The translations under genes were made by a program, and so were the position numbers. From positions 744,532 through 808,531 of the forward strand of contig OZ006985.1 of the NCBI GenBank assembly GCA_963931165.1: DNA of 64,000 nucleotides, in the 5' to 3' direction. The stretch comes from an uncultured Christensenellaceae bacterium (lineage in GTDB: Bacteria > Bacillota > Clostridia > Christensenellales > UBA3700). Below, piece by piece: positions 40,471 through 59,335 of this stretch (the first letter of the stretch is position 1; each line of letters starts with the position of its first letter). The notes beneath the pieces are model-generated. The model had not been told where the DNA came from and did no database searches. It worked only from the letters and a program-made list of their open reading frames with translations.

Positions 40471-40828
40471 TGGTGATTATAATGCAATGTTAGAGATAAG
40501 TCAAGCAAAACAACGAAAATTTTACAACTGGACGACTTTGGCAATTGTATTCTTTTCTTCTTGGAAAGTCAAGCCTTACATAACATGGTACAGTTGAACA
40601 AGATTCGCAAAACGGATCTATTCGGGAAAATTGGTGGAGACAACTCGCCTTACAGCGATTGCCGATAGGGGACGACGAGGCACATATCCGCATTGAACGA
40701 CTGCTTAAATAGTAACGCTGTTCAAGCGAAACAACGAAGTTTGAATGCCGCGCCGCAAAGCGAGCGCGGAACAGAAAAAGCCTGTCGCGGATTGCAAAGC
40801 AATACGCATAACAGGGGGACGATTCCCC

Positions 40829-40858
40829 AAAAAAATACCGAGTCAAAAGACCCGGTAT
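40829..40858 (-). terminator. Displaced original terminator of tRNA-Glu
   Basis: Minus strand TCACCA followed by ATACCGGGTC-TTTT-GACTCGGTAT-TTTTTT; the G-U pair fits minus-strand transcription. Confidence 0.7.
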
Positions 40859-41207
40859 GGTGAACTGTCTTTCGAGATGTCCGAACACGTATTTGGCGGC
40901 GATTCGGCAATGGATTTATCTCCAATATCATCTGTTTTCGGCGGCATCCGATTGAGATAGTTGTAGTAAATCTCAAAACGGTCGATGGCGTACACAAGTA
41001 CGATATCCCACGGCACGGCTTTTTCACAATCGGCAAGCATCTGCTGAAATGCAGGGCGATGGTCGTTCGTGCCTGTCATGGCTCTGTCGATATAGGTATC
41101 TAAAATCGTCAAACCGTTCGCCTCCGCATACTGATTGCAGATTCGGAGCTGTCCTTCGATGGACTGCTCGTTTTGTTTTTCACTGCTGTAACGTGCGTAG
41201 ATAACTG
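40843..41207 (-). pseudogene. Large serine recombinase remnant: split by insertion and internally deleted
   Basis: IYARYSS...QSIEGQ...DRAMTG...AIDRF joined directly to C-terminal EIYYNY...SSP; first codons displaced to 53183-53197. Confidence 0.85.
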
Positions 41208-41530
41208 TCACATATTTTTATGGACACTTTTTATCAAGTATTGCTACACCGCCAAATTCAATTTTTCGTTTCAAAAGGGTTTTGCCGGGTAGAATCACAA
41301 AAATAGACAGTCTAAAAAATACAATAAGCAGTCTGGATTTAACGAAAAACGGCCTCTGAAGTTCAGAGGTCGTTTCGATTTATTATTCATAACATAAGGA
41401 TGTCTAGAATTTGACTATTGTAAGAAACCAGCTTATCGTGAATCCCAAGTTCCAGGACATAATTCAAAAGTACTGAAATTTAATTTAATTAAAAAACTTA
41501 CACACTTCTCCTGAAACTGCCATATACATA

Positions 41531-44401
41531 TTACATAATATATTCAAACGACACTAAATCGCTGCCCATGTCTCCTTGCTTTAAGAGTTTACACACCATC
41601 CTTGAATATTTAATTGTTACAGGCAATTTTGAATAAATCACATCAGAGCTATTGAAATCCATTTTTGTTAAATACATAAGATCGTCAATTGCTTCATTTG
41701 CAGATATATTTCCGTAATATTTTTTAATTTTTAACGGTTTACCCATACCACGGGGGTTATTTCTATATGTTTGACCTTGGCAAATTTCTGAATTAACAAT
41801 TGAGCCATCAGACCAAACATAAATAGTATCCTTTGCCGCTTTAATCGCGGTTCCTCTTTTTACAGGATAACCCAAACAACCATATTTACCAAATTTGTAA
41901 CTATTAAAGAAAGAAAAGTCAGATATTTGAATTAAATCAAAATCATCTATACCCTCAAAAGCTTTTTTGAAACCAGCAATTTCTTCTTTTCGAAATGGAT
42001 TGGCTCTGTGAATAACTATTCGCTTTAGCTCATTTATTTTTGAGGTTTTATAATATGTTTGTCTAATTTTAATTCCCAGTTGATATGCTTCTTCTTCGGA
42101 AAGATATTGATTTTTTCTATGTTTATCGGATACTTGCGAGATGATTAATTGCATACCGCGTCCAGCACCATCAAACATTTGGCTGCACCCTACATGGATT
42201 CCATCAGAATTAATTCCAAAACTTATACCCAAAAACAGTGTATCTTTTGAATATTTCTCGGGATACCAAGGCATTCCTATAGTTTTTGTATATATTCCTA
42301 TCGCTAAATTAAATAATTTTTTATTTATATTGTCAGCCGAATTAAGTGTAGTTTCCTCGATAAATTGCGTTTTATACTTATTCATACAATGCAGTTTGAT
42401 ATAATCATGTAAATCTTTCTCGCCAGCCACTCGAAATCTTTGCAAATTATTGCCAATGAAAATCAATGCAATATCAATTTGTTTGTCATTATACATTTTT
42501 TGAATTCCACGTAAACACATTTCTGCAAATTTCGTGAAATCAACTTTGTTGTTTGCGGCGAGTTTATTGGCATAAAAAATAGGTATAGCATCATAAATCA
42601 GGTCTATTTCTTTTTTAAATATTGAATTGAAACCCTTATATTTCGGAATTAAATTTGTGCCCGATATATTCGTTCCGTTTAGAAATTGATTCAAAAAATA
42701 TTCTAACTTTGATTTGTCTTCTTCCGCACAAAAAACACCAACACGAATTTTATTTGTAGAAAACAATGTTTTACGCGGTCCGCTTTCCGTTATAATTTTA
42801 ATTTGATTTACGCTTTTGAAATTTTCTCCTACCATAATTGGTTCGGCAGTACAATTATATTTATCAAACGTAACGCAGTCAGTGCGATACCCAAATGGCT
42901 TATTATTAAATATAATTTCAGTAATATCATAATTAAATGAAAATATTCCCCTAAAGAATTTTTGTATAAGTTCATTCAGCTTATGGTAATTCTTTTGTGC
43001 ATGCAAGTAAGATTTTATGTTATTAATCTTATGTTTAATTGAATCCGACAGAACTTTCTCAGTAGAAAAGTAGTTAACATTTACAAATAAACAAATCTCT
43101 CCACTAAAGAAATCGACACGAACATTAAGCCCCTCTTTAATGGCTTCTCGAGAATTTATATAAATATTATCTTTGTACACTTCAAAACCGTCTTTTAGCG
43201 CCTTTATTTTTATAAATTCTTTTATCAGTTTACATTTCTTTTTTAGCGATATGGACTGTTCACACAAATTAACTATTTTAACTGCCTCAACGGTACAATT
43301 TAACTTTTTGAAGAGCGATTCTTTGTCCCCGACCGCATATAAATATTCGCCATGTTGCAAAATAAACGTTTCATCTTTAATGTCGTTTATCTCCTTTAAT
43401 GTTGAAGAGTCCAATGAATATTTTATCTTATAAACATTGGGATAATTTTGCAACGGATAGCAATTAAACATTAATTTTTCCGGTTGATTTTGTACCATTA
43501 GCGCAAAATTTTCATACTGAATATTTTTTTTAATGTTTTCTATTATGTCATTTTTCTTTCCATAGCAATTATACAGCTGTAAAAACAGATCGTCAAATCC
43601 GTTAATTATATAATAGCCCGATTGAGAATTAAAGCCCATCAATTCATTAATCGCATCATTTTTCGTTTGAGTATTGTCCACGATACACCAAACTAATTCC
43701 GTTTGTTTATGACTTGACAAATATTTTTTTAAACACTCCATTACGGATTGATCTTGTCCGGAATATCCAATTACCACAATTTTAGATGTATTAAGAGATT
43801 GAATTGCAGAAAAAATTTTATGAGATAGATTTTTTAATTCAGTTTCGGTGTTTTTAATCTGATCATAAATATAATCTCCATGCAATTTAATTAAATTTAA
43901 TTTTGTAGTTAAATTTGGACAAAGCGAGTCAGAACTTACAGAAAAGTCATACCCATCATTTATTTTATACAAGGCTTTTTCACATAACTTATCAAAATTT
44001 GTGGTCAATACACAATGTATTTGATGTTCAATTAAGTAATTAGCAAAACAAAGATACCCGTAAGATGGCTTTATTGCTTCAAATTTTTCTTTTATAAATA
44101 GACATCTTTCGTTTACAGAAGGAAAACACTTTTCAAAATAATAAGAATATGGATTAACGCCTTGCGGTAGTTGCTCCGTTTTTAAGAACTCAACAAAATT
44201 ATCGTCATTTATGAATAGATTATCGTCATAATGAATATTGTTTTGCGCACAATATATGCGCTTTCTAAATTCCAAAATCAACTTACTTGCGGGCATGCAT
44301 CCAGATAAAACAGAACAGCCTGCCCCAAGTAAAAATGTTACTTCTGAACCATTCAGTAAATTCAAACTGTTAATCAATTGATCTTGTGTGTTATATTTCA
44401 T
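41531..44401 (-). CDS. Single-chain SIR2-APAZ-short Argonaute fusion (SPARSA-like)
   Basis: SIR2 motifs LGAGCS, TTNFD, KLHGD, GYSG; MID HDYIK...TQFI; PIWI with degenerate tetrad (GISF, IHRA) and TKMDFN...KLPVTIKYS. Confidence 0.9.
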   Translation of the reverse strand: MKYNTQDQLINSLNLLNGSEVTFLLGAGCSVLSGCMPASKLILEFRKRIYCAQNNIHYDDNLFINDDNFVEFLKTEQLPQGVNPYSYYFEKCFPSVNERCLFIKEKFEAIKPSYGYLCFANYLIEHQIHCVLTTNFDKLCEKALYKINDGYDFSVSSDSLCPNLTTKLNLIKLHGDYIYDQIKNTETELKNLSHKIFSAIQSLNTSKIVVIGYSGQDQSVMECLKKYLSSHKQTELVWCIVDNTQTKNDAINELMGFNSQSGYYIINGFDDLFLQLYNCYGKKNDIIENIKKNIQYENFALMVQNQPEKLMFNCYPLQNYPNVYKIKYSLDSSTLKEINDIKDETFILQHGEYLYAVGDKESLFKKLNCTVEAVKIVNLCEQSISLKKKCKLIKEFIKIKALKDGFEVYKDNIYINSREAIKEGLNVRVDFFSGEICLFVNVNYFSTEKVLSDSIKHKINNIKSYLHAQKNYHKLNELIQKFFRGIFSFNYDITEIIFNNKPFGYRTDCVTFDKYNCTAEPIMVGENFKSVNQIKIITESGPRKTLFSTNKIRVGVFCAEEDKSKLEYFLNQFLNGTNISGTNLIPKYKGFNSIFKKEIDLIYDAIPIFYANKLAANNKVDFTKFAEMCLRGIQKMYNDKQIDIALIFIGNNLQRFRVAGEKDLHDYIKLHCMNKYKTQFIEETTLNSADNINKKLFNLAIGIYTKTIGMPWYPEKYSKDTLFLGISFGINSDGIHVGCSQMFDGAGRGMQLIISQVSDKHRKNQYLSEEEAYQLGIKIRQTYYKTSKINELKRIVIHRANPFRKEEIAGFKKAFEGIDDFDLIQISDFSFFNSYKFGKYGCLGYPVKRGTAIKAAKDTIYVWSDGSIVNSEICQGQTYRNNPRGMGKPLKIKKYYGNISANEAIDDLMYLTKMDFNSSDVIYSKLPVTIKYSRMVCKLLKQGDMGSDLVSFEYIM

Positions 44402-44419
44402 TATTAATTTCTCCGCAGA

Positions 44420-46384
44420 TTAAATTCTATCTATAATCTTTTGTTGGTACCACGCATTAGGCGCAATGTTGGATTGATACGCTTGATTAAATATTTGGTA
44501 CAACTGAGCATATGTTATTTGTTTTTGCATAATTGTTTTCAATTCCTTTGTTTGGCAAGGAATTATTTTCATTCCATCAATATGTTTTGTTCCATCTATG
44601 GAATAATAGGGTATATTTTTCCTGCCCCTAAAATCTGCAATAACATTAACGTGCAGATAGGTTGTCGCAAACAAACAATAAGCATGTTCATCGGCGTGGG
44701 ATAAGAGGTAGTCTCCTAAATGTCTCGAAACGGGCTCCATCTCCATACGGCGTTGATTTGTACTGCTTGCAAGTGTTGCTTCCAGAAGAAGGGTATGGGC
44801 AGGATAGTCTTCCGTCGCTTCGTATTTATAGGTAATGTCTTCATGTCCGCCCGCGGCATGGGTTACAGGCAGCAGATCCGCATCAAGCGATAAATTCATG
44901 TAGTCAAGGATTTTTCCTTGTCTTCCGGAAATCTTATACCATGCGATAGCCAGCACGTACTCAAAGATAGTAGGGACATCTGCATTGTTCGTAACCAGGG
45001 TTTGAATGTCACTATCACGCCTATCTTCAAAAGCGGACAAGAGAAAGATAATGTTTTCGTCCGTAAATCTGCGGTCAATCATCGCATTGAATCGTTCATA
45101 GCGTTCTCTATCGACAAAAGCTTGTACGTCATACAAGTTACGAACTTGAACGCCATATATTTCTTCAACCTTAGCAAATATCTGATTTTCGGTTATCTGC
45201 GTCCCGACAATCGATTCCAAAGAGCTGTTTCCCATCAGATTGTCATCTGAAGTATATGCTAAAGCTGCAAGGCTTTCTTCGGCAATTTTGAAGAAACAAT
45301 TCGGGATTATATCAAACTTGACTTTACCGTCTTGGAACAATACGGTATCTGTCGTTTTGAAGTACCGTCTGTTAAGGTCAAAATAATCCGATAGAGTGCT
45401 CTTTGCCTTAAATAAATGCAGAAGCTTAAAAAATTCGGTTTTGAACTCCGTTTCGTCTGCACAGTTAAAAATATGAGCGTGTCTATTTATAGTGGCAAAG
45501 CCGTCTCTATTGACTTTGCTTGTCAAAGTTGCATTAAACAGATACTGTTTCCAAAGAATTGAACTCTTGCCGCTGACTGATTTTACCGCTTTGAATAAAT
45601 TTATTGCAGCCGTATCAGAACGAGTGAGGATGACATCCTGTAATGTCTTATACAACTTAAAATACGGCTTGTCATAATTGCGGCTCTTGCGATTCATACC
45701 GACTTCTGTAATGACATCTTCAGTAACATTGCTCGCAAGCAGTATATCAAGCGCTTCCTTATAATTCGGCATATCCATAAGGATATTGATTATCGTTTCA
45801 TCGATAGTGCCATTGCCGTTACGAATCTTTTCAATGCTGTCAAATATATCTCGGGTTTTTGCCTCGTTGATTGCGAGCGGCAAAAGGTATGTAACCTCAT
45901 CAAACGACAACTCACCCAAACGATTGAGGGCCATGATCAGGATAACATAAGGCCGTACATAGCCGCTATTGATAGGCGAATGTACTTTAAGAAGCTGGTT
46001 CAGATACAGAAAACTATCCGCCGGAATTTGAAGCAGGTTATTAGTATTGAAGTTACCGGTTAATGCTATCTGCAATAATGCGGTGCCAGCATCTGTGAGC
46101 CTGCGCTCATCGTTGATAAGGCCGAGATCTACAAGTCCGGACGTTTTTTCTCTTGCGTCTTTTGCTTTTCGTGGAGCTTCGCCTTCAATGAAGCCGTTTT
46201 CCTTAAGAAAATCGTAATACGCAATCTGCACCGGTTCATTCTCAGACCACCGCTGATTTGAAAAAGCAGGATTAGCCCAAAAATCGCTCAAAAGTTCAAG
46301 CTGCCTTTCAATCTTTCTATTAAACTCAACCATTCGGAAGCTTGTAGTTCCAAGCGACCAACAATAGCTTTTATATGCAGGCAC
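44420..46384 (-). CDS. AlwI-family type IIS restriction endonuclease
   Basis: N-terminal WSLGTTSFR, EYVLAIAW, LLEATL and EMEPVSRHL motifs recalled for this family; adjacent dual methylase. Confidence 0.85.
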   Translation of the reverse strand: MPAYKSYCWSLGTTSFRMVEFNRKIERQLELLSDFWANPAFSNQRWSENEPVQIAYYDFLKENGFIEGEAPRKAKDAREKTSGLVDLGLINDERRLTDAGTALLQIALTGNFNTNNLLQIPADSFLYLNQLLKVHSPINSGYVRPYVILIMALNRLGELSFDEVTYLLPLAINEAKTRDIFDSIEKIRNGNGTIDETIINILMDMPNYKEALDILLASNVTEDVITEVGMNRKSRNYDKPYFKLYKTLQDVILTRSDTAAINLFKAVKSVSGKSSILWKQYLFNATLTSKVNRDGFATINRHAHIFNCADETEFKTEFFKLLHLFKAKSTLSDYFDLNRRYFKTTDTVLFQDGKVKFDIIPNCFFKIAEESLAALAYTSDDNLMGNSSLESIVGTQITENQIFAKVEEIYGVQVRNLYDVQAFVDRERYERFNAMIDRRFTDENIIFLLSAFEDRRDSDIQTLVTNNADVPTIFEYVLAIAWYKISGRQGKILDYMNLSLDADLLPVTHAAGGHEDITYKYEATEDYPAHTLLLEATLASSTNQRRMEMEPVSRHLGDYLLSHADEHAYCLFATTYLHVNVIADFRGRKNIPYYSIDGTKHIDGMKIIPCQTKELKTIMQKQITYAQLYQIFNQAYQSNIAPNAWYQQKIIDRI

Positions 46385-46403
46385 TTCTATTTCCTCCGTA
46401 TCA

Positions 46404-48545
46404 TCAATAGTTCACGATCAGCACTTCCTCTGCCTTGGAAGTTTTATCTTTTGTCTGATAATTTGAATTCGCGTAGTTATAATCTAGGTAAATCACGCGA
46501 TAACGGTCAATATTCCTATCAATCCAATCGAGAAGTATCTTATTCTCTTTCCCCTTGGAATGAAGTACATTGGACAGTGCAAAGCGTATTCCTCGTTCAT
46601 TCAGATTATCAAGATAGGTAAGCAGTTCTTTTTCAAGCATTTCGTTCCAGCCGTCCTGCTCGTTATACGTAGCGCAAGTGATCAGATAGGGCGGATCGGC
46701 ATAGACAAAGGTATTCTCATTCCAATCGTCAGTCAGAAGTTCTCTGAAATCATGGCTTGCAAAACTATAATCGCCGCTCTTTAATCGGTCGATAAAGGTC
46801 GATAACTTCTCACGCATCTTTTTGTTGAAGTCGCGCTTTCCGACAGGGAGATTAAATTCACCCTTGCGATTGAAACGGATTTGGTTATTAAAGGCGTAGA
46901 CAATCAAGACATACAGCGTAACATAATAGTTATACTCTAAATTGGTATGATGATTAAAATCATCTCTTAATTTAAGATAGCGAGAACTATTATATGAGGC
47001 AAGTCCTTCCGCGCTATTGCAACCGTAAAAATCATACCCGTACTTTTCCGTGTTGGAAAGGCCGTACTTTTCTATAATCGCGTCGATCGTTTCAAAAGTT
47101 ACTTGCTTGTCGAGATTTTTAAATGTCCCAAACATATACCGAAGAAGCTCGTTATTGTCATTAAAAATAACGCGATTGCAAGGAACATTGATGCCGACAT
47201 TCCCGCCGCCGCAAAATAAATCGACAAACCTATCTATATCCTGCGGGAAATGGGGCAATATCTGGGGCAGGAGCTTGTATTTTCCTCCCGTATAATTGAG
47301 AGGGGATTGAATAAGCTCTTTTTGCTTGGAATCATAGCACTCACAAAGGAATAAACGCTCTTCATTCCCTGTAATGTTTGATTTCCCGGCACTGAACGCC
47401 CTGTAGCTTTCCGAAAAGACCTTTACGCGCCCCTTTCGTGATAAAATACGCATAATATCTGCGTCACTGATTTTGGCATTGGAACGGTCATTACCTTTTG
47501 TCGCCATATTATTGTACGACAACAGAATATATTTTGCCTTAATATGCGAAACAAGATCTTCAAACGCCTGCGCTGCGCTTGAAGTACAATAATCACTCTT
47601 GAGTTTTGAACGATCCATCTTTAAGGCAACACCCGATACCTTTGGCTTTTCCCACCTTGCAACGTTTTCCAGAAGATGGTATGAATCGCAGTATTGTCTT
47701 GAATTATACGGCGGATCGATATACACCAGATCAGCCTCTATACGTTTAACCAATTCGTTAGCATCTTCATTGTAGCATTGATTGTTTTCGTTATTATCAT
47801 TGCTTGCCAAGGGGACAGCTAATTCAATATGACGGCAGAATTCAGCATTGCGTATATAGGCGTCGTAATGGCCGCAGGTGTTTGCAATTTTATCCATTGC
47901 GTAGAGTAGCGAAGTGATCAGAATCGCACGTTCTCTGGCATTAATCTGATTACTTTTGTATTTGCTTTCTATATCCTCTCTGATAAAACCAATCTTACGG
48001 CAATCCGCAGCAGAAAAAAACGTATCGGAAAAATTTTCCGACATATAATTCTCTTCGTTTGGTTGCACGGTGTTATAGAAGCAAACCAAGTCAATTATCT
48101 TTTCCTTATCATATTTTTGCGCACCGAACCATGCAACGTGACAAATGTAATTAAAGTAGAGCAAGTCATTTGTAATCAGTTTTTTGTCTGAAAAAGCAGA
48201 CGCAACAGAACCCGTCCCCGCAAAAATATCGGCGACAGTATTGATTGCACTGCATTCTCTATTTACCGTAGACTTAATAAAATCCAGCAGTTTGTACTTG
48301 TTCCCGAGATAACGCCTATTATTGATTTGGGTGGTCTTGTAGGAGGGTTCCGAAGCTACAGCATTATCTTCCGGTGCGTCTTTTAGTAATATTTTGAGTT
48401 GCGCAATCGAGTCCTCATCCCAGACATAGCGCCCAGTAGAAGTAGTTGGTAATTCTATCAAATGATGTTTTAGCAGATAATAGAAAGTAGATCTGCTGAC
48501 ATTCAACTCTTTCAAAATCTCATTAGAAGATAATGCAGACGGCAT
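46404..48545 (-). CDS. Two-domain N6-adenine DNA methyltransferase with N-terminal HTH
   Basis: Two sets of motif I (DIFAGTG, DLFCGGG) and DPPY; N-terminal HTH-like ILKELNVSRSTFYYLL; AAGGAG SD before ATG 48545. Confidence 0.92.
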   Translation of the reverse strand: MPSALSSNEILKELNVSRSTFYYLLKHHLIELPTTSTGRYVWDEDSIAQLKILLKDAPEDNAVASEPSYKTTQINNRRYLGNKYKLLDFIKSTVNRECSAINTVADIFAGTGSVASAFSDKKLITNDLLYFNYICHVAWFGAQKYDKEKIIDLVCFYNTVQPNEENYMSENFSDTFFSAADCRKIGFIREDIESKYKSNQINARERAILITSLLYAMDKIANTCGHYDAYIRNAEFCRHIELAVPLASNDNNENNQCYNEDANELVKRIEADLVYIDPPYNSRQYCDSYHLLENVARWEKPKVSGVALKMDRSKLKSDYCTSSAAQAFEDLVSHIKAKYILLSYNNMATKGNDRSNAKISDADIMRILSRKGRVKVFSESYRAFSAGKSNITGNEERLFLCECYDSKQKELIQSPLNYTGGKYKLLPQILPHFPQDIDRFVDLFCGGGNVGINVPCNRVIFNDNNELLRYMFGTFKNLDKQVTFETIDAIIEKYGLSNTEKYGYDFYGCNSAEGLASYNSSRYLKLRDDFNHHTNLEYNYYVTLYVLIVYAFNNQIRFNRKGEFNLPVGKRDFNKKMREKLSTFIDRLKSGDYSFASHDFRELLTDDWNENTFVYADPPYLITCATYNEQDGWNEMLEKELLTYLDNLNERGIRFALSNVLHSKGKENKILLDWIDRNIDRYRVIYLDYNYANSNYQTKDKTSKAEEVLIVNY

Positions 48546-48587
48546 AGAACTTCTCCTTATGCAACTTACTCGCATTGCTTTTTAGAC

Positions 48588-48616
48588 ATTATACCATATA
48601 TCTTGTGTTTTTTCAA
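48588..48616 (-). promoter_or_regulatory. Promoter of the MTase-REase-SIR2/Ago operon
   Basis: TTGAAA-17bp-TGGTATAAT on the minus strand. Confidence 0.75.
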
Positions 48617-49218
48617 GAGAATATAGCCTATTAAAGATAAAAATGGATGCTAATCATTCATCGCATCTTAAACAATAGTGGTAGATCCAAAATAACCATG
48701 AAAACATAATTTGGCACCATGACGTGTGCTTGGCATAGACAAGTGCGCCGCGCTGACGCGCGCCGCAGCCAAGCACACGCCGCGAAACGGCAACAAGAAC
48801 AACGCGGAAAACCAAACCGAAAGGCGCGGCGGAGCGGAGCCGTCCCCGCTAAACCGCTTGGGGATCGGCTGCCGCTTTTCCGCCGTGCGATCCTTTCTCT
48901 TCATTGGTTTTGCCGTTCCGTTTACCTCTTTAATTTTGCCTCTTTCGGCAGGTTTAGGTTAGCATAGTCCTCACGCAAGTCAACGGTCGCAAAATCGTCG
49001 CTTAAAACACCCATTATAGACTTTGAGAGTCGAGTAAGGGAAAGTTCCTTGCTCGGATCTTTTGTCGTTTATAAGCCGTTCTGCGCCCTCAACGCAACGA
49101 TTTTTCTTTGTCCCGTTGACTTCCGCAAGCCGACAGAGAATTTGCTCTCTTTTTATCGTCCCATGCTGCCCCGCCTGTTGCCCGAAAAAGGCAAATCCAA
49201 TTCAAGAGGTGAAAGAAA

Positions 49219-49845
49219 ATGGAACAAAAGAAAGTAACAAGAGATTTCAAAGTCCTTGCGGAAAAAATATCTCCGGACAATGTAGCGGTAATGGCGGAAC
49301 TTATTGCAATGAAAGAGACCAAAATACTCATAAGCTATCTGGGGCACCATGCGGAGAAGGCGCATAAAAACCTTTGCCGGGACATTTTCGGCAAACACGA
49401 GTCCGGATATATCTTTTCGGACAGTTACGACTTCGTCCAAAGCGTGGCGTTATTCTTATGTGACCACTTCGGAGAGTATTTGGACGACGTCCTGTATATC
49501 TCCAAAAGAGGCAAACCGAGAACGATAAAGACGGAGTGTTATCTTATCGTCACCAAAATGGTATCAAGGGATTACAGAATTTTCCGTAAATGCCAAAGCC
49601 TTGAAATTACAAGAGAAGAACCGAAACCCGAATATGGACATCAGGCAGACGAAGAACAGGACTATTCACGCGCAGATGAGATCGCGGCTTCCCTTAACCT
49701 TACGAAAAACATGAGCCTTGCGCTCGATTACCGCATGTCCGGTTTGAGCTATCCCGAAATAGCGAAACAGCTTTCCAGAGCGGTAAGCACGGTATACGAA
49801 TACTTCGAGAAAATGCGCGCAAGGTATTCCGCCATATACGGATAG
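49219..49845 (+). CDS. Sigma-70 region 4/LuxR-like HTH protein
   Basis: C-terminal GLSYPEIAKQLSRAVSTVYEY HTH; GAGG SD. Confidence 0.7.
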   Translation: MEQKKVTRDFKVLAEKISPDNVAVMAELIAMKETKILISYLGHHAEKAHKNLCRDIFGKHESGYIFSDSYDFVQSVALFLCDHFGEYLDDVLYISKRGKPRTIKTECYLIVTKMVSRDYRIFRKCQSLEITREEPKPEYGHQADEEQDYSRADEIAASLNLTKNMSLALDYRMSGLSYPEIAKQLSRAVSTVYEYFEKMRARYSAIYG

Positions 49846-49867
49846 ATTTTCTATTTCATACTTCATT

Positions 49868-49902
49868 AAAGGCAGTTGCTTGCTATAAAGCGGCTGCCTT
49901 TT
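49868..49902 (+). terminator. Intrinsic terminator
   Basis: AAAGGCAGTTGCTT...AAGCGGCTGCCTTTT. Confidence 0.65.
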
Positions 49903-50183
49903 CTCATGTTCCTCGAAGCATTGCTTTTCCAAAAGTTTAGTAAATGGGGCAAAAAACCTGCCCCATTTATTTGTAGGATAAAGAAAAACTTTTTCAAATA
50001 GGAAAAAAGCCTTCCTATTTGGCGGATACCATGTGGAAAAAGCAAGCGAAAGACTTTTTCAAAGTGGAAAGAAACCTTGCCGGTTTGACTTGTAGAATTA
50101 TTCCAAGGAACTTCGTAAAGGTGCAAAAACTTTGCGAGTTTAAGGTTTAAGCTATGCAAAAAATACAAGGAGGAACAAAAGCA

Positions 50184-51077
50184 ATGCCTTACAAAGCAGC
50201 AAAGATCTCGTTTGACGGAAGTCATTACATCGCCACCCCTAAGGAAAATTTCCCGCAGGGACATAAGCGACGACGGGCAGCCATTCCGTCAACACCAAAA
50301 GAGGTCGAACAAAAAGCGCAATTCGAAGCCGCCTACAAGGAAAGTCAAAAACTGCCGCGCAAAGAACGCAAAGCATGTATGCAAAAAGCTATGGAAGAGG
50401 CGATCCCAGACAAGGAGCAGCGGAAAGAATACGTGGAGCGGAACAATGAACGCAAAAAGACGAATGCAATCCGCAGAAAAGTCCGTTTGTCCAAGAAAGT
50501 GAATTTGCAGAGAGAATGGAGCTATTTTTGCACGTTCACCTTTTCGGACGAAAAACACACGGAAGAAAGCTTCCGTAAGTCGCTGCGAAACACTTTGAAG
50601 CACCTCGTAAACCGCAAAGGCTGGAAACATATCGGCGTATGGGAGCGCGGCGGAGAAACCGGAAGATTGCATTTTCACGGTATCTTCTATATTCCGCCGG
50701 ACAGGATGGTCGGAGAGATCGTGGAAACAAAGGATTACAACACAAAAGACCATCGAATGCAGACGGCGCACCAGAACACCTATTTCCTTGAACGATACGG
50801 ACGCAACGACTTCCAGCCGCTCGGCTCGCAGGAAGAAGTACAACACTCTTTGGGGTATCTGATGAAGTACATAGAAAAGTCCGGCGAGCGTCTGATCTAT
50901 GGCGGCAAACTGCCGACCTACTTCGAATCGGACGTAGCAGACGAGGATATTCTCGCTCCATACGGGATAGACGACAGAAAGGCGATACTTGCGGACAATT
51001 TTACCTGCATGGTGGACGGAGAAGTCATAGGCAAAGTAAGTCCGGAAGTCATAGCAAAAATGCCGAAGGCAAATTAA
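50184..51077 (+). CDS. HUH-family rolling-circle replication initiator (Rep)
   Basis: Motif 1 FCTFTF, motif 2 LHFHG, motif 3 YLMKY; AGGAGG SD. Confidence 0.85.
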   Translation: MPYKAAKISFDGSHYIATPKENFPQGHKRRRAAIPSTPKEVEQKAQFEAAYKESQKLPRKERKACMQKAMEEAIPDKEQRKEYVERNNERKKTNAIRRKVRLSKKVNLQREWSYFCTFTFSDEKHTEESFRKSLRNTLKHLVNRKGWKHIGVWERGGETGRLHFHGIFYIPPDRMVGEIVETKDYNTKDHRMQTAHQNTYFLERYGRNDFQPLGSQEEVQHSLGYLMKYIEKSGERLIYGGKLPTYFESDVADEDILAPYGIDDRKAILADNFTCMVDGEVIGKVSPEVIAKMPKAN

Positions 51078-51257
51078 ATTCATTTGTCTTTCGCCGAGAG
51101 AGCGTAAACGAAAACGCCCTTTTCGTCAAGGGTAAAGTGCATTGCCTTGGCAACCCTTGACGGAAAGTAACAGACAGGACAGCAAGGGGACGAATCTTGC
51201 GTTTCCGTTTGTTTCGTCTCCGCCGAAAGGCAAAGTAAACAAACAGGAGGATAAAAA

Positions 51258-51452
51258 ATGAACAACATTGAGGTCAAAACGATTTACGGCAGGATAGAAG
51301 ATTTTGAAAATAATTACTTCTTCTCTCCGTCTATCAGCAAAAGAAAAACTGTGGGCAGGCAGACCTATTACGTCCGCAGATATTTCAACGGCGGCAAAGA
51401 CTTTGAACAGGCTATGAAGTCCATTGCCGTGCAGCGCACAATGAAAAAGTGA
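51258..51452 (+). CDS. TnpW-like small protein
   Basis: AGGAGG SD; VGRQTYYVRRYF resembles TnpW; position just before the recombinase. Confidence 0.5.
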   Translation: MNNIEVKTIYGRIEDFENNYFFSPSISKRKTVGRQTYYVRRYFNGGKDFEQAMKSIAVQRTMKK

Positions 51453-51462
51453 GGTAAACGAT

Positions 51463-53094
51463 ATGAAACAGAAACACTACATCGCGGGATTGTATTACAG
51501 ACTTTCCCAAGAGGACGAACGTCAAGGCGAATCGGTATCCATAGACAACCAAAGAACAATCTTACGCAAGTATGCCGAAGAGCGCGGCTTTACCATCCAC
51601 GACGAGTACATTGACGACGGCGTATCGGGTACGACATTTCAGCGCCCTGAAGTGCAAAGATTGTTGGACGACGCAAAGACGGGCGTCATCAATACCATCA
51701 TCGTCAAAGACCTTTCAAGATTCGGACGAAACTACATTGAAGTCGGGCAATATGTGGATTATGTATTCCCCGCGTTCGGTATTCGCTTTATTGCCATACA
51801 AGACAACGTGGACACGGAAAATCGTGACAGCGGCGCAATGGAGATGATGCCTATCATGAACGTCTTTAACGAGTGGCACGCGGCTAATACGAGCAAGAAA
51901 ATTCGCGCGGTAAAAAGAACGCACGCTCTCGAAGGAAAATTCAGCGGTTCAAGAACACCGTACGGTTATCTGAAAGGAACGGACGAAAAAAGGACTTTCG
52001 TGATAGATGAAGAAACTGCGCCCGTCGTGAAAAGGATTTTTGAGATGTATGCGTCCGGTATCAGCCCTCAAAGGATAGCAGAAATTTTCAATGAGGAAGA
52101 TATACCAAGTGCCGGCAGGATCGCATTTTTGAGGAGCGGCAGGAAATATAACAACAACGAGCATCCCTACTGGGAGCAGGCGACAATTAGACCGATATTG
52201 AAAAACATTGCTTATCTCGGACATCTGGCGCAGCAGAAATTTACCACAATTTCGTATAAAAATCAGAAAGCAATACAAAAAGACCCGAGCGACTGGGTAA
52301 TCGTTTATAATACGCATCCGCCTATTATCTCACAGGAATTGTGGGACAGAGTACAAGAGCGCATGAAATCACAGGCAAAAGGCAGAAAGATGCACACGGG
52401 AATTACGCATCCGCTTTCGGGATTTTTATACTGCGCCGATTGCGGCGGAAAATTGAAAATGGGCTATGCATGGGACAAAAGAAAGAATGATTACAGGTAT
52501 AATTTTGACTGCGGCAGGCTGAAGCGTTATGGAAAATCATATTGCTTCTCGCACTATATACAGGCGCATATTTTGGAAAAGATCGTGCTTGACGATATAC
52601 GGGATATGGCAAAAATGATTGTACTCGACGAGGATTCTATCCGCGAAGAGTTTGTGCGTCATAATGCTGAATTAAGAGATCAATCCGTGAAGTCTGTAAA
52701 AAAACAGTTACAGGTAAAACGCAGACGTACGGAAGAATTATCCCGCCTTATGCAGACAGCTTATGAAGACAGAGTGAACGGCAAGATGCCCGAGGATATC
52801 TGTATCGGTTTTATCCAAAAATATTCCGAAGAACGGAAACGACTGGAAGCAGAGATCGCGGAACTGGAAACAAAACTGAACGAAGCGGAAACCGTGCGGC
52901 AAAGCGCGGAAGATTTTATACAAAACGTCAAGAAATATCTCGACGCGCCTGAACTCACACGGGAAATGTGCTACGAACTGATTGAGCGAATAATCGTAGG
53001 CGGCCTGCCGAAAATAACGGGCAAAGAACGGACGATAGAGATTGTATATAAAGTCGATATCTCTTCCGTCCTGCGACATAAATTCCGCCAATAA
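51463..53094 (+). CDS. Large serine recombinase (TnpX/TndX-like)
   Basis: LYYRLSQED, DDGVSGT, KDLSRFGRN; recombinase domain; Zn ribbon CADC...C; C-terminal coiled coil. Confidence 0.95.
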   Translation: MKQKHYIAGLYYRLSQEDERQGESVSIDNQRTILRKYAEERGFTIHDEYIDDGVSGTTFQRPEVQRLLDDAKTGVINTIIVKDLSRFGRNYIEVGQYVDYVFPAFGIRFIAIQDNVDTENRDSGAMEMMPIMNVFNEWHAANTSKKIRAVKRTHALEGKFSGSRTPYGYLKGTDEKRTFVIDEETAPVVKRIFEMYASGISPQRIAEIFNEEDIPSAGRIAFLRSGRKYNNNEHPYWEQATIRPILKNIAYLGHLAQQKFTTISYKNQKAIQKDPSDWVIVYNTHPPIISQELWDRVQERMKSQAKGRKMHTGITHPLSGFLYCADCGGKLKMGYAWDKRKNDYRYNFDCGRLKRYGKSYCFSHYIQAHILEKIVLDDIRDMAKMIVLDEDSIREEFVRHNAELRDQSVKSVKKQLQVKRRRTEELSRLMQTAYEDRVNGKMPEDICIGFIQKYSEERKRLEAEIAELETKLNEAETVRQSAEDFIQNVKKYLDAPELTREMCYELIERIIVGGLPKITGKERTIEIVYKVDISSVLRHKFRQ

Positions 53095-53098
53095 CAAC

Positions 53099-53136
53099 AA
53101 AGCGTATGGGTTTCATTCAAACTCATACGCTTTTTC
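53099..53136 (+). terminator. Terminator after recombinase
   Basis: AAAGCGTATGGGTTT...AAACTCATACGCTTTTT. Confidence 0.8.
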
Positions 53137-53182
53137 TATGCCGTTTGCACTTTCTTCAATAGTGTCCATAAAATGAAATAGC

Positions 53183-53210
53183 AACTGCACCTTTCATTGT
53201 CGTTTACCTC
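53183..53210 (-). pseudogene. Displaced SD and first five codons (MKGAV) of the outer recombinase
   Basis: Minus strand GAGGT-aaacgaca-ATG AAA GGT GCA GTT; continues in frame at 41202 after excision. Confidence 0.85.
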
Positions 53211-53702
53211 TGTGTTCGGATTTGTAGTTCACATACTATCTTTTTTTGATTGGGAATGTTAGCAAGCCAGCCCATAAGGTTTCCCAACTGACCGTGCATT
53301 TTGCATAACTCTTCCCAAAATAACCAAAAGCGTATGCAAACTTTTGTGTCGATTTTTTCTTTCGACAACCCGAAACAATCGGGAAAAGACTACGCCGTCA
53401 AGGGCGTCAGGGGCAGCGCCCAAAAAATTATTGCATACTGATACAGAAAAAGCCGACCCGCGCAAGCAGATCGGCTTATAAGTTTTCAGCGACAATTTTT
53501 CCCCTTGACGGCAACGGTTTTTTCCGATACCATCCGCAAATCGAAAGACTTTGCCAAAGTACCCGACATTTTGGGAAGATTATGGGTGCGGTTATCCTTT
53601 TTTTAAGTTCTTTCGGTACAGAGTATGCCCATTGTATAGGGCGGCTATCTAACAATCTTTTGTAAAAAGTTGTACCCTCAAAGAAAAGCGCGGAGGTACA
53701 CA

Positions 53703-53858
53703 ATGCAGGAAATAGACGTCAAGAATGATTTTGATGCAAAAGTTCTTATCAACGGGGTTCCGGACTATCGGCTTATCATTGCCGATAAAGAATCAGGTTT
53801 TTTAGAGGCATTGGAATTGCAGATAAGCGAGCACTATAAGGAGAATACACAATCTTAA
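53703..53858 (+). CDS. Small hypothetical protein (51 aa)
   Basis: CGGAGG SD before ATG 53703. Confidence 0.45.
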   Translation: MQEIDVKNDFDAKVLINGVPDYRLIIADKESGFLEALELQISEHYKENTQS

Positions 53859-53896
53859 AAGTGTATAAAAACATTATATTTTGGTTTAATCTGAGC

Positions 53897-53947
53897 TTGA
53901 CATAATTTTTCTTTTCTTCTATAATATATGCAAGTGAACACTTGCAT
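53897..53947 (+). promoter_or_regulatory. Promoter and palindromic TetR operator
   Basis: TTGACA-17bp-TATAAT, followed by ATGCAAGTG-AA-CACTTGCAT (53928-53947) over the start site. Confidence 0.8.
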
Positions 53948-53962
53948 TTTATGGAGACAGAT

Positions 53963-54538
53963 ATGGATAAGACGAGCGAAAAGATAATCGATGCCACGAT
54001 GGAGTTGATTTTGGAATGCGGCTATGCGGCGGCAACCACCAAAGATATTGCCGTGCGTGCAGGAGTGAATGAATGTACCATCTTCCGAAAGTTCGGAGAA
54101 AAGAAGGAAATTGTTGTTGAAGGGATGAAGTTGCCACGCTGGCATCCTAATATCACAAAAGATACTTTTGCAGACATTTCCGGAGATTTGCGTGCCGACC
54201 TCACGATGTTTATGGAGAACTATATGCGCGAAGTTACTCCCGAATTTGTAAAACTCTCCGTCGGCTTGCGTTCGCCGCAGATATACGAATATACCGCCCC
54301 AATAATAATGAATATTCCGCAGGTATTCCTTTCAGAGGTAAAAAAATACCTGCAAACTATGCAGAGGCTTGGCAAGGTAAGACAGATTGATATTGACCAA
54401 ACGGCTGAAATGTTCCTTTCGGCTGCATTCGGATACGTCTTCCTCTCCGCTTCATTTGAAAAGGGGCTTTTAAATTCCGACAGAGCTGCGTACATTGAGA
54501 GTACCGTCAACACAGTTATCGGGGGGATTACACAATGA
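53963..54538 (+). CDS. TetR/AcrR family regulator
   Basis: GYAAATTKDIAVRAGVNECTIFRKFGEK HTH; start ATG 53963 after GGAG. Confidence 0.92.
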   Translation: MDKTSEKIIDATMELILECGYAAATTKDIAVRAGVNECTIFRKFGEKKEIVVEGMKLPRWHPNITKDTFADISGDLRADLTMFMENYMREVTPEFVKLSVGLRSPQIYEYTAPIIMNIPQVFLSEVKKYLQTMQRLGKVRQIDIDQTAEMFLSAAFGYVFLSASFEKGLLNSDRAAYIESTVNTVIGGITQ

Positions 54539-56259: not shown

Positions 56260-56735
56260 TGAAGCGTAAAAGATGGCTTGCTCTGTTCGTGGAGAACGAC
56301 GTCGGCGTACTTGCCGAAATATCTAGCTTATTTGCAGGTAAGGCATATAATCTCGACAGCTTGACCGTCGGCGTTACGGCAGATAAGACGATATCGCGCA
56401 TGACCATATGTCTCACAAGCGACGATATTCTGTTCGAACAGATAAAAAAGCAACTCAACAGAAACGTAAACGTCATCAAAGTAATTGACCTTACGGACAG
56501 CTTTGTTGCAGAAAGGGAACTTGCCTACCTCAAAATAACAGATTTCAAGCCGGAAAACTTGTATCCGCTGTTTGAGATTGTAAAGCAGTTTGAATTGCAG
56601 ATTCTGGAAATCAAATCGGATGAAATCCTTTTACAGAGCGTGAACTCGTTTGAAAGAACTGACGAATTGATAAACAAACTTGCAGACGGTAAATACGCCG
56701 TTGAAGTTGTCCGCAGCGGCAGCGTTGCTATTTGA
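56259..56735 (+). CDS. ilvN: Acetolactate synthase small (regulatory) subunit
   Basis: ACT domain VENDVGVL...YNLDSLTV; EQIKKQLN; C-terminal EVVRSG. Confidence 0.88.
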   Translation: MKRKRWLALFVENDVGVLAEISSLFAGKAYNLDSLTVGVTADKTISRMTICLTSDDILFEQIKKQLNRNVNVIKVIDLTDSFVAERELAYLKITDFKPENLYPLFEIVKQFELQILEIKSDEILLQSVNSFERTDELINKLADGKYAVEVVRSGSVAI

Positions 56736-56865
56736 AAGTTAAAACATCGGGGAACCCGGCTTTCAGATACTTGAACTATTCAATTTTTCAGTGATAATTT
56801 TTCCCGTTGACTTCCGCGAGAACTGTGCTACGATAGCCACGACGAGGGGCAAAAAGTCGGAGAGT

Positions 56866-56933
56866 TATTCCTTTGGCGGCAATAAAAAACTACCCGAACC
56901 CACTGTTCTGTAATAGTGGTGTTCGGATAGTTC
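56866..56933. repeat. 68-bp direct repeat, copy 1
   Basis: Matches 59263-59330 with 3 mismatches; contains the AACTACCCGAAC...GTTCGGATAGTT hairpin. Confidence 0.9.
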
Positions 56934-57001
56934 AGTGGAATTAAAGCAAACTAGCAAAGCTAATCCACTGGAGATACTGCTATTGTAGTGTAGGCTAAAA
57001 T

Positions 57002-58978: not shown

Positions 58979-59262
58979 TAGTATTCACCAAATTTTTCTT
59001 AATAGATATTTAAACATATTATACTGCATTTTGGTAAGAAAATCAATAGTCTGCAATACATATAATCGTTATTATGAAAAGATTGTCTTTGGAGTTAAAG
59101 ATTACCGACGATTTATTATTTAGAATGATAAACGAAAATAGTGTGTTCGGTAGCGGTGGTTGACATCAGAAAGGTTGTTTGTTTTTTAATAAATAATCAC
59201 CATAGACTGATTGAGGGTGCGATTAGAACAAATTGATTCGCTTAGCTTTTATATGGTAAGCC

Positions 59263-59330
59263 TATTCTTTTGGCGGCAATAAAAAACTACCCGAACCCTC
59301 TGTGCTGTAATAGTGGTGTTCGGATAGTTC
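59263..59330. repeat. 68-bp direct repeat, copy 2, five bases from the tRNA-Glu CCA end
   Basis: See copy 1. Confidence 0.9.
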
Positions 59331-59335
59331 CCATT

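What the first reader, a model, noticed from the sequence alone, without database searches (positions are those of the whole stretch)
41531..44401. Fully fused SIR2-APAZ-short Argonaute in one 956-aa polypeptide
Seen: intact SIR2 NADase motifs (GAGxS, TTNFD, LHG, GYS), a central region of APAZ size, the MID HxxxK motif and a PIWI lacking catalytic aspartates. Known: SPARSA systems deplete NAD+ after guide RNA/target DNA recognition; most are two-gene and fused forms are a minority. Inference: a compact, AT-rich, divergent single-gene abortive-infection sensor from a gut clostridial host.
Basis: partly seen in the sequence, partly recalled or inferred. Interest (0 to 1): 0.68.

Follow-up and report, generated by a model that had tools for sequence, protein, structure and literature searches.

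The report
Fused SIR2-APAZ-Argonaute defence gene (SPARSA-A)
This gene encodes an intact single-chain bacterial Argonaute immune sensor joined to an NAD-destroying enzyme; it is a divergent member of an already named and tested class, and it was imported on a mobile island together with a restriction-modification system.

Summary
Window 41531-44401 (minus strand) is one intact 956-aa ORF. It matches PADLOC's fused SIR2-APAZ-pAgo model end to end (E 3e-153).

- **Motifs.** N135, H174 and D217 align with the experimentally validated N142, H186 and D230 of Geobacter Sir2-APAZ. H665, K669 and Q679 align with the 5'-phosphate pocket of GsAgo. The DEDX positions are S727, A800 and Y932.
- **APAZ.** The middle region (281-524), folded alone (pLDDT 90), hits only APAZ domains and Argonaute N-lobes in the PDB.
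- **Known kind.** This architecture is the named clade S1A (SPARSA-A). Fused members have already been shown to defend against phage (PgSir2-Ago) and to deplete NAD (JomSIR2-APAZ-Ago).
- **What is particular here.** The protein sits in a compact (~930-957 aa) subclade seen mostly in metagenomes. It has 24% identity to a fused Paraburkholderia homologue (P. gardini), the stand-in used here for PgSir2-Ago.
- **Context.** The gene (30% GC) lies in an 18.5-kb island at tRNA-Glu in a 58% GC Clostridia genome. A sister species has the empty site. It is the third gene of a tightly spaced AlwI-type MTase-REase-pAgo trio, which recurs in four related lineages.

Verdict: a real, probably functional, new member of a known kind.

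The parts
41531..44401 (-). Complete gene for the 956-aa SIR2-APAZ-MID-PIWI fusion protein (P0001), stop codon included
   Evidence: ORF list and translation. PADLOC PDLC02420 Aga_SIR2-PNTD1-PNTD2 matches residues 1-944 to profile 1-997/1010, E 3.2e-153. AF2 model has pLDDT 88 and pTM 0.74.
43562..44401 (-). SIR2 NADase domain, residues 1-280. Includes the NAD-binding loop G26/G28/S30, catalytic N135 (43997-43999), catalytic H174 (43880-43882) and D217 (43751-43753).
   Evidence: Pfam SIR2_2 E 4.5e-12. GsSir2-APAZ 8in8_B/8jkz_A match query 15-276, E 2.5e-17, with N142=N135, H186=H174 and D230=D217 read from the printed alignment. These residues are invariant in 50 homologues. Codons checked.
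42872..43561 (-). Bridging helix plus APAZ domain, residues about 281-510
   Evidence: Folded alone with an alignment: pLDDT 89.8, pTM 0.82. Foldseek top hits are the APAZ parts of SPARSA Sir2-APAZ (8jl0_A E 1.2e-8, TMq 0.59; 8k87_B), followed by SiAga1, SPARTA, SPARDA, SPARHA and long-Ago N lobes. A profile of this region hits only GsSir2-APAZ residues 351-404 and 485-550 below E 0.01 (E 0.005; the next hit is DruH at 0.047).
42257..42871 (-). MID domain, residues about 511-715, with 5'-phosphate pocket H665 (42407-42409), K669 (42395-42397), Q679 and K706
   Evidence: Alignment to GsAgo 8in8_C (query 518-943, E 3.2e-33) puts H665, K669 and Q679 on H166, K170 and Q181. The roles of those residues are from PMC10781750. 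They are invariant in 50 homologues.
41531..42256 (-). Catalytically dead PIWI domain, residues 716-956. The DEDX positions are S727, A800 and Y932. The C-terminus is conserved (F952, Y954, M956).
   Evidence: Foldseek of the full model: GsAgo chains 8jkz_B and 8y7z_B, TMt 0.84-0.87. Column composition at positions 727, 800 and 932 is never D, E or H. C-terminal conservation.
44411..44414 (-). Shine-Dalgarno-like GGAG, 9 nt before the ATG. It lies in the 18-nt spacer after the REase stop codon.
   Evidence: Sequence read directly.
44420..46384 (-). AlwI-family type IIS restriction endonuclease (654 aa), immediately upstream of the pAgo gene
   Evidence: Pfam RE_AlwI E 5e-66 over the full profile. 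PADLOC REase_II.
46404..48575 (-). Double D12-class (Dam-like) N6-adenine methyltransferase with an N-terminal HTH (723 aa); first gene of the trio
   Evidence: Pfam MethyltransfD12 with two stretches, E 1.2e-65. PADLOC MTase_II PDLC03292 E 6e-273. TIGR00571 dam on residues 424-722.
48588..48616 (-). Promoter-like site (TTGAAA-17-TATAAT with extended TG, 11 of 12) just upstream of the MTase start; candidate operon promoter
   Evidence: Consensus scan only. Not evidence of function.
41353..41369 (-). Intrinsic-terminator-like hairpin followed by a T run, about 160 nt downstream of the pAgo stop; candidate operon end
   Evidence: Consensus scan and sequence.
40842..59333 (.). Horizontally acquired island (18.5 kb) abutting the 3' end of tRNA-Glu (59336-59410, minus strand). 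It carries the trio, a Rep-like gene, an HTH gene, a large serine recombinase (51463-53094) and other cargo.
   Evidence: Sister species G003 has recD2 and ppx 594 bp apart, against 19.7 kb here. blastn places the junctions at window 40841/40842 and 59333/59334. GC profile. Pfam annotation of the neighbours.

Best explanation
The gene encodes a functional single-chain short-Argonaute immune sensor of the SPARSA-A (clade S1A) type.

Shown here:
- One polypeptide carries a SIR2 domain with the complete Asn/His catalytic dyad and NAD-binding residues, an APAZ domain, a MID domain with an intact 5'-phosphate pocket, and a PIWI domain without the nuclease tetrad.
- All of these residues are under purifying selection across the family.

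Inferred from the characterised relatives (GsSir2/Ago, PgSir2-Ago, JomSIR2-APAZ-Ago):
- The MID/PIWI/APAZ lobe loads a short 5'-phosphorylated guide, most likely RNA taken from abundant transcripts.
- It scans for complementary single-stranded DNA of an invading phage or plasmid.
- Duplex formation past about position 13-15 displaces the PIWI sensor loop (here about residues 757-768).
- This releases or rearranges the SIR2 domain, possibly with oligomerisation, so that H174 and N135 hydrolyse NAD+.
- The infected cell then runs out of NAD+ and stops growing or dies before the invader spreads (abortive infection).

The gene reached this high-GC Clostridia genome by horizontal transfer on a mobile island. 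It is probably co-transcribed with an AlwI-type type IIS restriction-modification pair.
For: - End-to-end match to the fused PADLOC model.
- GsAgo and GsSir2-APAZ are the best PDB sequence hits for the two halves.
- The AF2 model is confident and matches SPARSA Ago chains at TMt 0.84-0.87.
- The middle region matches APAZ domains.
- N135, H174 and D217 equal GsSir2 N142, H186 and D230. Mutation of those residues abolishes NADase activity or defence (PMC10781750, PMC11452484 and bioRxiv 10.1101/2021.12.14.472599).
- H665, K669 and Q679 equal GsAgo H166, K170 and Q181.
- All of these residues are invariant in 50 homologues down to 27% identity, and the C-terminal residues are conserved.
- The alignment with a Paraburkholderia fused homologue is collinear over the full length.
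- Fused members have already been shown to defend (PgSir2-Ago: about 500-fold against lambda-vir and about 400-fold against SECphi27) and to lower NAD (JomSIR2-APAZ-Ago).
- The ORF is intact, and an identical copy exists on an independent metagenome contig.
- Relatives sit in defence islands next to GmrSD, nSTAND, TIR and AAA_15/21 genes.
Against: - There is no functional or expression data for this gene.
- Identity to any characterised system is low: about 22-23% to GsAgo and 24% to a Paraburkholderia fused homologue.
- Residues that GsAgo uses to read the 5'-AU of the guide differ here: N184 is E682 and R190 is S688 (read from the alignment). Guide preference may therefore differ.
- The APAZ match is moderate (TMq about 0.6).
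- PgSir2-Ago did not block plasmids, so the target range cannot be predicted.
- Published work disagrees on whether SPARSA activation needs tetramerisation (PMC10474274 against PMC11452484). The activation step is therefore uncertain even for the model system.
Confidence: 0.8

Rival explanations
1. The pAgo is not a stand-alone sensor. It works as an integrated third component of the AlwI-type restriction-modification operon. It could be a second-line abortive-infection backstop that is co-regulated with restriction. Alternatively, restriction cuts and their resection could provide the single-stranded DNA targets, or the guide precursors, that switch it on.
For: - The order MTase-REase-pAgo, with 10-19 nt spacers, recurs on contigs of four related lineages. 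The three proteins have diverged to 55-79% identity between them.
- There is one promoter-like site ahead of the MTase and one terminator-like site after the pAgo.
Against: - A 73%-identical homologue (P0007) sits in a different defence island without this RM.
- None of about 170 more distant loci has an AlwI REase nearby.
- Published analysis found no protein other than the APAZ partner specifically associated with short pAgos (PMC9097488).
- GC content (pAgo 30%, RM 40-43% in two of three lineages) and incongruent identities suggest that the pAgo and the RM pair have recombined independently.
- Plain defence-island clustering explains the adjacency.
Confidence: 0.12
2. The gene is an inert passenger or a decaying copy on a mobile element. 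It is intact by recency but is not expressed or not active in this host.
For: - It has very foreign composition (30% against 58% GC) in an island absent from 40 relatives.
- Fragmentary S1A-like remnants exist in other genomes of the class (G244, 336-aa frame; G046, 464-aa frame).
Against: - The full-length frame has no defect.
- All catalytic and binding residues are retained.
- An SD sequence and operon signals are present.
- An identical copy is found elsewhere.
- Homologues at 55-74% identity keep the same length and motifs, which shows continuing selection in the lineage.
Confidence: 0.05
3. The SIR2 domain is not a simple NAD+ hydrolase here. It might ADP-ribosylate or deacylate a target, or make a signalling nucleotide, so the outcome is not NAD+ depletion.
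For: - SIR2-fold enzymes include deacylases and ADP-ribosyltransferases (general knowledge).
- The products of GsSir2/Ago could not be detected in cell lysates in the first study.
Against: - Later work on the homologous GsSir2 reports hydrolysis to nicotinamide and ADP-ribose and a blocked peptide-binding site (PMC11452484).
- The catalytic loop motifs are identical here.
- No partner effector gene is conserved next to the family.
Confidence: 0.03

Closest known systems
Clade S1A short pAgo systems (SPARSA-A): PgSir2-Ago of Paraburkholderia graminis (Zaremba et al. 2022) and JomSIR2-APAZ-Ago of Joostella marina (Koopal et al. 2022)
   Same: - Single polypeptide SIR2-APAZ-MID-PIWI.
- Dead PIWI and intact SIR2 dyad.
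- Collinear full-length alignment with a Paraburkholderia (P. gardini) fused homologue, E 1e-72.
- Best HMM is the fused model.
   Different: - Only 24% identity to the Paraburkholderia homologue.
- About 70-100 residues shorter: 956 aa against 1040-1063 aa.
- It lies in a separate, well-supported clade made almost wholly of metagenome sequences from low-GC Firmicutes-like contigs.
- No member of this subclade was found among the characterised systems in the papers read.
- The P. graminis and J. marina sequences themselves were not compared.
GsSir2/Ago (Geobacter sulfurreducens SPARSA, clade S1B; PDB 8in8, 8jkz, 8jl0, 8k87, 8y7z, 8y80)
   Same: - Best solved-structure match for both halves.
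- Catalytic N/H/D residues and the MID H/K/Q pocket align one to one.
- The sensor-loop region is present.
   Different: - The Geobacter system has two genes and forms a heterodimer. Here there is one chain, with the junction at about residue 508. The invariant E520-P521 aligns with residues 16-17 of GsAgo.
- The 5'-nucleotide-reading residues differ: N184 is E682 and R190 is S688.
- The APAZ sequence is barely recognisable (E 0.005).
SPARTA (TIR-APAZ/short pAgo, clade S2A) and SPARDA/SPARHA (nuclease-APAZ, clade S2B)
   Same: The same APAZ + MID + dead-PIWI sensor architecture and the same guide/target-activated abortive-infection logic. The structures match at TMt 0.74-0.82 for the Ago part and TMq about 0.5-0.57 for APAZ.
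   Different: The effector domain is TIR or a nuclease, not SIR2, and those systems are two-gene.

Membership tests
Short pAgo clade S1A (SPARSA-A, fused SIR2-APAZ-pAgo) | SIR2, APAZ, MID and PIWI in one polypeptide, in that order | tested here: met
   - Single 956-aa ORF.
- PDLC02420 matches residues 1-944.
- SIR2 is residues 15-276 by GsSir2.
- APAZ is residues 281-524 by fold.
- MID-PIWI is residues 518-943 by GsAgo.
Short pAgo clade S1A (SPARSA-A, fused SIR2-APAZ-pAgo) | PIWI lacks the DEDX catalytic tetrad | tested here: met
   S727, A800 and Y932 occupy the GxDV, RDG and YYAH positions. None is acidic or His in 50 homologues. The motif registration rests on my knowledge of hAgo2 motifs. 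The Glu-finger position was not mapped.
Short pAgo clade S1A (SPARSA-A, fused SIR2-APAZ-pAgo) | MID domain keeps a 5'-phosphate guide-binding pocket | tested here: met
   H665, K669, Q679 and K706 are invariant. They align with GsAgo H166, K170, Q181 and K207. The C-terminus is conserved.
Short pAgo clade S1A (SPARSA-A, fused SIR2-APAZ-pAgo) | Phylogenetic grouping with fused (S1A) rather than split (S1B) systems | tested here: inconclusive
   The protein groups with 107 other fused proteins, including a Paraburkholderia one. The best HMMs are the fused models (510 and 422 bits, against 274 bits for a stand-alone pAgo model). No S1B, S2A or S2B outgroups were in the tree, so monophyly against S1B was not tested.
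Short pAgo clade S1A (SPARSA-A, fused SIR2-APAZ-pAgo) | Guide- and target-dependent NAD+ depletion and defence against phage or plasmid | not testable with these tools
   Needs biochemistry and infection assays.
SIR2-type NADase (Pfam SIR2_2, PF13289; ThsA/GsSir2-like) | Rossmann-type NAD-binding loop GxGxS plus the catalytic Asn-His dyad and a conserved Asp | tested here: met
   PF13289 E 4.5e-12, above its cut-off. G26, G28, S30, N135, H174 and D217 are invariant and align with GsSir2 N142, H186 and D230.
APAZ domain (N/L1/L2-like lobe of Argonaute partners) | Fold similar to the APAZ of solved short-pAgo partners and to the N lobe of long Argonautes | tested here: met
   All 50 listed Foldseek hits of the isolated region are APAZ proteins or Argonaute/PIWI proteins. 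The best is 8jl0_A, E 1.2e-8, TMq 0.59-0.60 over about 255 columns. The full model aligns with long Agos over 750-820 columns.
AlwI-family type IIS restriction-modification system (neighbouring genes) | RE_AlwI endonuclease next to a methyltransferase with two D12 adenine-methylase domains | tested here: met
   PF09491 E 5e-66, profile 1-441/441. PF02086 has two stretches. PADLOC REase_II and MTase_II. Recognition sequence not determined.

The most novel reading that the evidence does not exclude
In this subclade the fused SIR2-APAZ-pAgo has become the third cistron of a conserved AlwI-type type IIS RM operon, MTase-REase-pAgo. The order is kept in at least four lineages that have diverged to 55-79% identity. 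The two layers may be functionally coupled. Restriction could provide the DNA ends or single-stranded DNA, or the timing signal, that arms an NAD+-depleting Argonaute backstop. That would be a wired two-tier immune module rather than chance neighbours. A second, smaller possibility is that the compact APAZ and the altered 5'-nucleotide-reading residues (E682, S688) give a different guide preference from GsSPARSA.
Probability: 0.12. Interest if true: 0.6.

Novelty: new member of a known kind. Interest (0 to 1): 0.3.

Why it matters
It adds no new principle. Fused SIR2-APAZ-pAgo proteins are a named clade whose members have been shown to defend cells and to lower NAD+.

Its modest value has three parts:
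1. It is a short, intact representative of a poorly sampled subclade. No fused SPARSA chain was found in the PDB copy searched, so a compact single-chain form could be a convenient target for structure work or for single-protein nucleic-acid detection tools.
2. It is a clear case of recent horizontal acquisition of a pAgo on a nested mobile island, with the empty site seen in a sister species.
3. The recurring RM-pAgo trio gives a concrete and cheap test of whether restriction and Argonaute-triggered abortive infection cooperate.

Tried and rejected
- **Pfam and NCBIfam.** Pfam alone sees only SIR2_2, and no Piwi or APAZ model fires at E <= 0.1. NCBIfam gives only a weak RsAgo-type hit. Domain calls therefore had to rest on PADLOC, PDB and fold searches.
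- **First genome scan.** The first genome-contig scan, with the single protein, found nothing. It worked with the alignment.
- **Plasmids.** megablast of the element against PLSDB plasmids gave no match.
- **One-off RM adjacency.** I first thought the RM adjacency was a one-off, because none of 80 GTDB loci had an AlwI REase and a 73% homologue lacked it. I revised this after the contigs of P0005, P0008 and P0009 showed the same trio.
- **PADLOC on other island ORFs.** It gave nothing.
- **Literature.** A search for AlwI plus Argonaute returned only noise. A search for newer work on fused SPARSA returned nothing relevant.
- **Class-level HMM search.** It covered 399 genomes. Matches were too sparse (7 genomes, of which only this one carries a full-length copy) to say whether fused or split forms predominate.
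- **Pseudogene or mis-called start.** Rejected: the start region aligns with homologues (consensus MxxxxQxxLIN), an SD sequence is present, and there are no internal stops.
Full report
**1. Observation**

The window has one uninterrupted ORF on the minus strand at 41531-44401 (ATG start, 956 codons). A GGAG sits 9 nt upstream of the start. The gene is 30% G+C, while the flanking chromosome is about 56-62%.
- G26-A-G28-C-S30.
- T133-T-N135-F-D137.
- L173-H174-G175-D176.
- G212-Y-S-G-Q-D217.
- H665-D-Y-I-K669.

In a MAFFT alignment of 50 homologues that reaches 27% identity, G26, G28, S30, T133-D137, H174-D176, G212, Y213, G215, D217, S219, H665, K669, Q679 and K706 are invariant. This is a real, selected protein and not a chance frame.

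**2. What it is**

*HMM and sequence matches.*
- PADLOC's model of the fused protein (PDLC02420, Aga_SIR2-PNTD1-PNTD2, class I) matches residues 1-944 to profile positions 1-997 of 1010, with E 3.2e-153. A second fused-length model (PDLC02384) matches the C-terminal half at 422 bits.
- Pfam recognises only SIR2_2.
- Against PDB sequences, the two halves hit the two chains of the Geobacter sulfurreducens SPARSA complex. GsAgo matches query 518-943 (E 3e-33). GsSir2-APAZ matches query 15-276 (E 2.5e-17).

*Residue correspondences, read from the printed alignments.*
- N135, H174 and D217 fall on GsSir2 N142, H186 and D230.
- H665, K669 and Q679 fall on GsAgo H166, K170 and Q181.
- N142A and H186A abolish NADase activity (PMC10781750, PMC11452484).
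- D230A abolishes NAD+ binding and defence (bioRxiv 10.1101/2021.12.14.472599).
- K170 matters for activity.

*Structure prediction.*
- An AlphaFold2 model built on the 50-sequence alignment is confident (mean pLDDT 88, pTM 0.74).
- Its best PDB matches are the SPARSA Ago chains (TMt 0.84-0.87).
- Long Argonautes align over 750-820 columns, so the region in front of MID behaves as an Argonaute N lobe.

- Every one of the 50 listed Foldseek hits is an APAZ-containing partner of a short pAgo or an Argonaute/PIWI protein. They include SPARSA Sir2-APAZ (8jl0_A, 8jkz_A, 8k87_B, 8in8_B; E about 1e-8, TMq 0.56-0.60), SiAga1, SPARTA TIR-APAZ, SPARDA and SPARHA.
- A sequence profile of the same region finds only the APAZ part of GsSir2-APAZ below E 0.01 among 177,635 PDB sequences. 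The match is collinear, at E 0.005.

*PIWI.* The positions that align with the GxDV, RDG and YYAH motifs of active Argonautes are S727, A800 and Y932. They are never Asp, Glu or His in the 50 homologues. The motif registration rests on my own knowledge of hAgo2. The Glu-finger position was not mapped.

*Approximate domain limits.*

| Domain | Residues |
|---|---|
| SIR2 | 1-280 |
| Bridging helix and APAZ | 281 to about 510 |
| MID | about 511-715 |
| PIWI | 716-956 |

The point that corresponds to the gene boundary of two-gene systems lies near residue 508. PDLC02436 starts at profile position 18 on residue 525. The invariant E520-P521 aligns with residues 16-17 of GsAgo.

**3. Relatives and place in the family**

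- More than 300 proteins of 927-1026 aa match over their full length in the 5.8-billion-protein collection. The nearest non-identical one is 74% identical.
There were also 9 loci on predicted viral contigs. Many of these come from human-gut, rumen, rabbit and mouse-gut assemblies.
- A FastTree of 108 full-length proteins shows three well-supported groups:
  1. Proteobacteria, Bacteroidota and others, about 1040-1060 aa. This group includes a Paraburkholderia protein and several Flavobacteriaceae.
  2. Firmicutes and Melainabacteria, about 1010-1020 aa.
  3. A compact group of about 930-957 aa, almost entirely from metagenome contigs. It holds the window protein.
- The window protein aligns collinearly with the Paraburkholderia gardini fused protein over residues 7-939, at 24% identity.
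- The tree has no S1B or S2 outgroups, so clade monophyly was not tested.

**4. Genomic setting**

- The assembly is one 1.8-Mb contig. None of 40 related genomes, including 14 species of the same genus, has the gene.
- In a sample of 399 genomes of the same class, only this one has a full-length copy. Three others have fragments.
- In the closest sister species (G003), RecD2 is 99% and Ppx 98% identical. There recD2 and ppx are 594 bp apart, against 19.7 kb here.
- blastn places the insertion between window 40841/40842 and 59333/59334. The right junction is at the 3' end of tRNA-Glu.
- Besides the pAgo, the island holds:
  - a resolvase-domain remnant (40843-41211);
  - an HTH protein;
  - a Rep-like protein;
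  - a large serine recombinase with DUF4368 (51463-53094);
  - a TetR regulator and acetolactate synthase genes;
  - a 658-aa low-GC orphan flanked by 68-bp direct repeats.
- Directly upstream of the pAgo on the same strand lie an AlwI-family endonuclease (44420-46384) and a methyltransferase with two D12 domains (46404-48575). The spacers are 19 and 18 nt.
- A strong promoter-like site lies only in front of the methyltransferase. A terminator-like hairpin follows the pAgo. Both are consensus matches only.
- The host is a member of the Clostridia, judged only from the nearest named relatives of the flanking citrate synthase (66-67% identity). A gut origin could not be verified for this genome.

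**5. The RM-pAgo trio**

The same order, MTase-REase-pAgo with 10-19 nt spacers, is found on four sets of contigs:
- an identical metagenome contig;
- contigs carrying the 74% homologue P0005;
- contigs carrying the 73% homologue P0008;
- contigs carrying the 67% homologue P0009.

Across these lineages the three proteins have diverged to 72-79% (MTase), 55-70% (REase) and 67-74% (pAgo) identity to the window's copies. Several observations argue against obligate coupling:
- One 73% homologue (P0007) lies in a different defence island, next to GmrSD and DUF4238 genes.
- Homologues at 60-61% are preceded by GIY-YIG and HNH genes.
- One 60% homologue (P0012) is preceded by a NUDIX gene that overlaps its start.
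- None of about 170 more distant loci has an AlwI REase nearby.
- Identities are incongruent. The window's RM is nearest to the P0009 contig, while its pAgo is nearest to P0005.
- G+C is mosaic in two of the three lineages compared (RM 40-43%, pAgo 30-31%). This points to recombination between modules.

I read this as a locally conserved defence cassette. Functional coupling is possible but not supported beyond adjacency.

**6. Mechanism**

*Shown.* The architecture is complete, and the NADase and guide-binding residues are conserved.

*Inferred by homology to GsSir2/Ago and the tested fused proteins.*
- The protein loads a 5'-phosphorylated guide and recognises complementary ssDNA.
- The PIWI sensor loop rearranges, the SIR2 domain is activated, NAD+ is depleted, and infection is aborted.

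*Open points.*
- The guide type and 5'-base preference are unknown. GsAgo N184 and R190 are E682 and S688 here.
- Published studies disagree on whether activation needs tetramerisation.

**7. Comparison and novelty**

- Fused SIR2-APAZ-pAgo proteins are clade S1A, named SPARSA-A (Koopal 2022, PMC9097488).
- PgSir2-Ago gave 400-500-fold phage protection in E. coli.
- JomSIR2-APAZ-Ago lowered NAD.
- This gene is therefore a new, divergent and compact member of a known kind.
- No single PDB chain covered both halves in the sequence search. A single-chain structure may therefore still be lacking, at least in that copy.

**8. Verdict**

Interest is 0.3. The most novel reading not excluded is a functionally wired RM-plus-Argonaute module, with probability about 0.12.

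Noticed in passing
window 41531-48616; loci L082, L085, L086, L089, L094: The three-gene order double-D12 MTase, AlwI-type REase, SIR2-APAZ-pAgo, with 10-19 nt spacers, recurs in four related lineages. The proteins are 55-79% identical between them. Identities are incongruent: the window's RM is nearest to L085 and its pAgo nearest to L089. G+C is mosaic in two lineages (RM 40-43%, pAgo 30-31%), but all three genes are about 29% in L089.
   Followed up: partly
window 40842-59333: An 18.5-kb island abuts the 3' end of tRNA-Glu (59336-59410, minus strand). Sister species G003 has the empty site, with recD2 and ppx 594 bp apart. A separate insertion of about 668 bp (40077-40744) is also absent from G003.
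   Followed up: partly
window 56866-56933 and 59263-59330: 68-bp direct repeats (96% identical, 2397 bp apart) bracket a single 658-aa gene of about 31% G+C (57002-58978, minus strand). That gene has no Pfam hit above cut-off and no PADLOC hit.
   Followed up: partly
window 40843-41211 (minus strand) and 51463-53094 (plus strand): A 122-aa ORF matches only the N-terminal part of the Resolvase domain. It lies at the left edge of the island, right next to the pAgo terminator. A complete large serine recombinase (Resolvase + Recombinase + Zn ribbon + DUF4368), with Rep-like and HTH genes, lies on the other side of the RM-pAgo trio. This suggests nested elements.
   Followed up: no
loci L090, L093 and L091: Homologues at 60-61% identity are immediately preceded by a 241-aa LEM-3-like GIY-YIG gene plus HNH genes. 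Another 60% homologue (P0012) is preceded by a NUDIX gene whose end overlaps the pAgo start. A NUDIX hydrolase next to an NADase could act on ADP-ribose.
   Followed up: no
window 53942-56735: A TetR regulator and acetolactate synthase large and small subunits (about 50% G+C) lie inside the island. This is metabolic cargo between the serine recombinase and the orphan cassette.
   Followed up: no
genomes G244:C14:17314-18279 and G046:C12:28771-30027: These are strong matches to only the N-terminal third of the fused SIR2-APAZ-pAgo model, in open frames of 336 and 464 aa. They may be truncated remnants or split variants in other genomes of the class.
   Followed up: no
loci L175-L183 (IMG/VR): Nine predicted viral contigs carry fused SIR2-APAZ-pAgo relatives at 22-29% identity. 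The family may sometimes ride on prophages.
   Followed up: no
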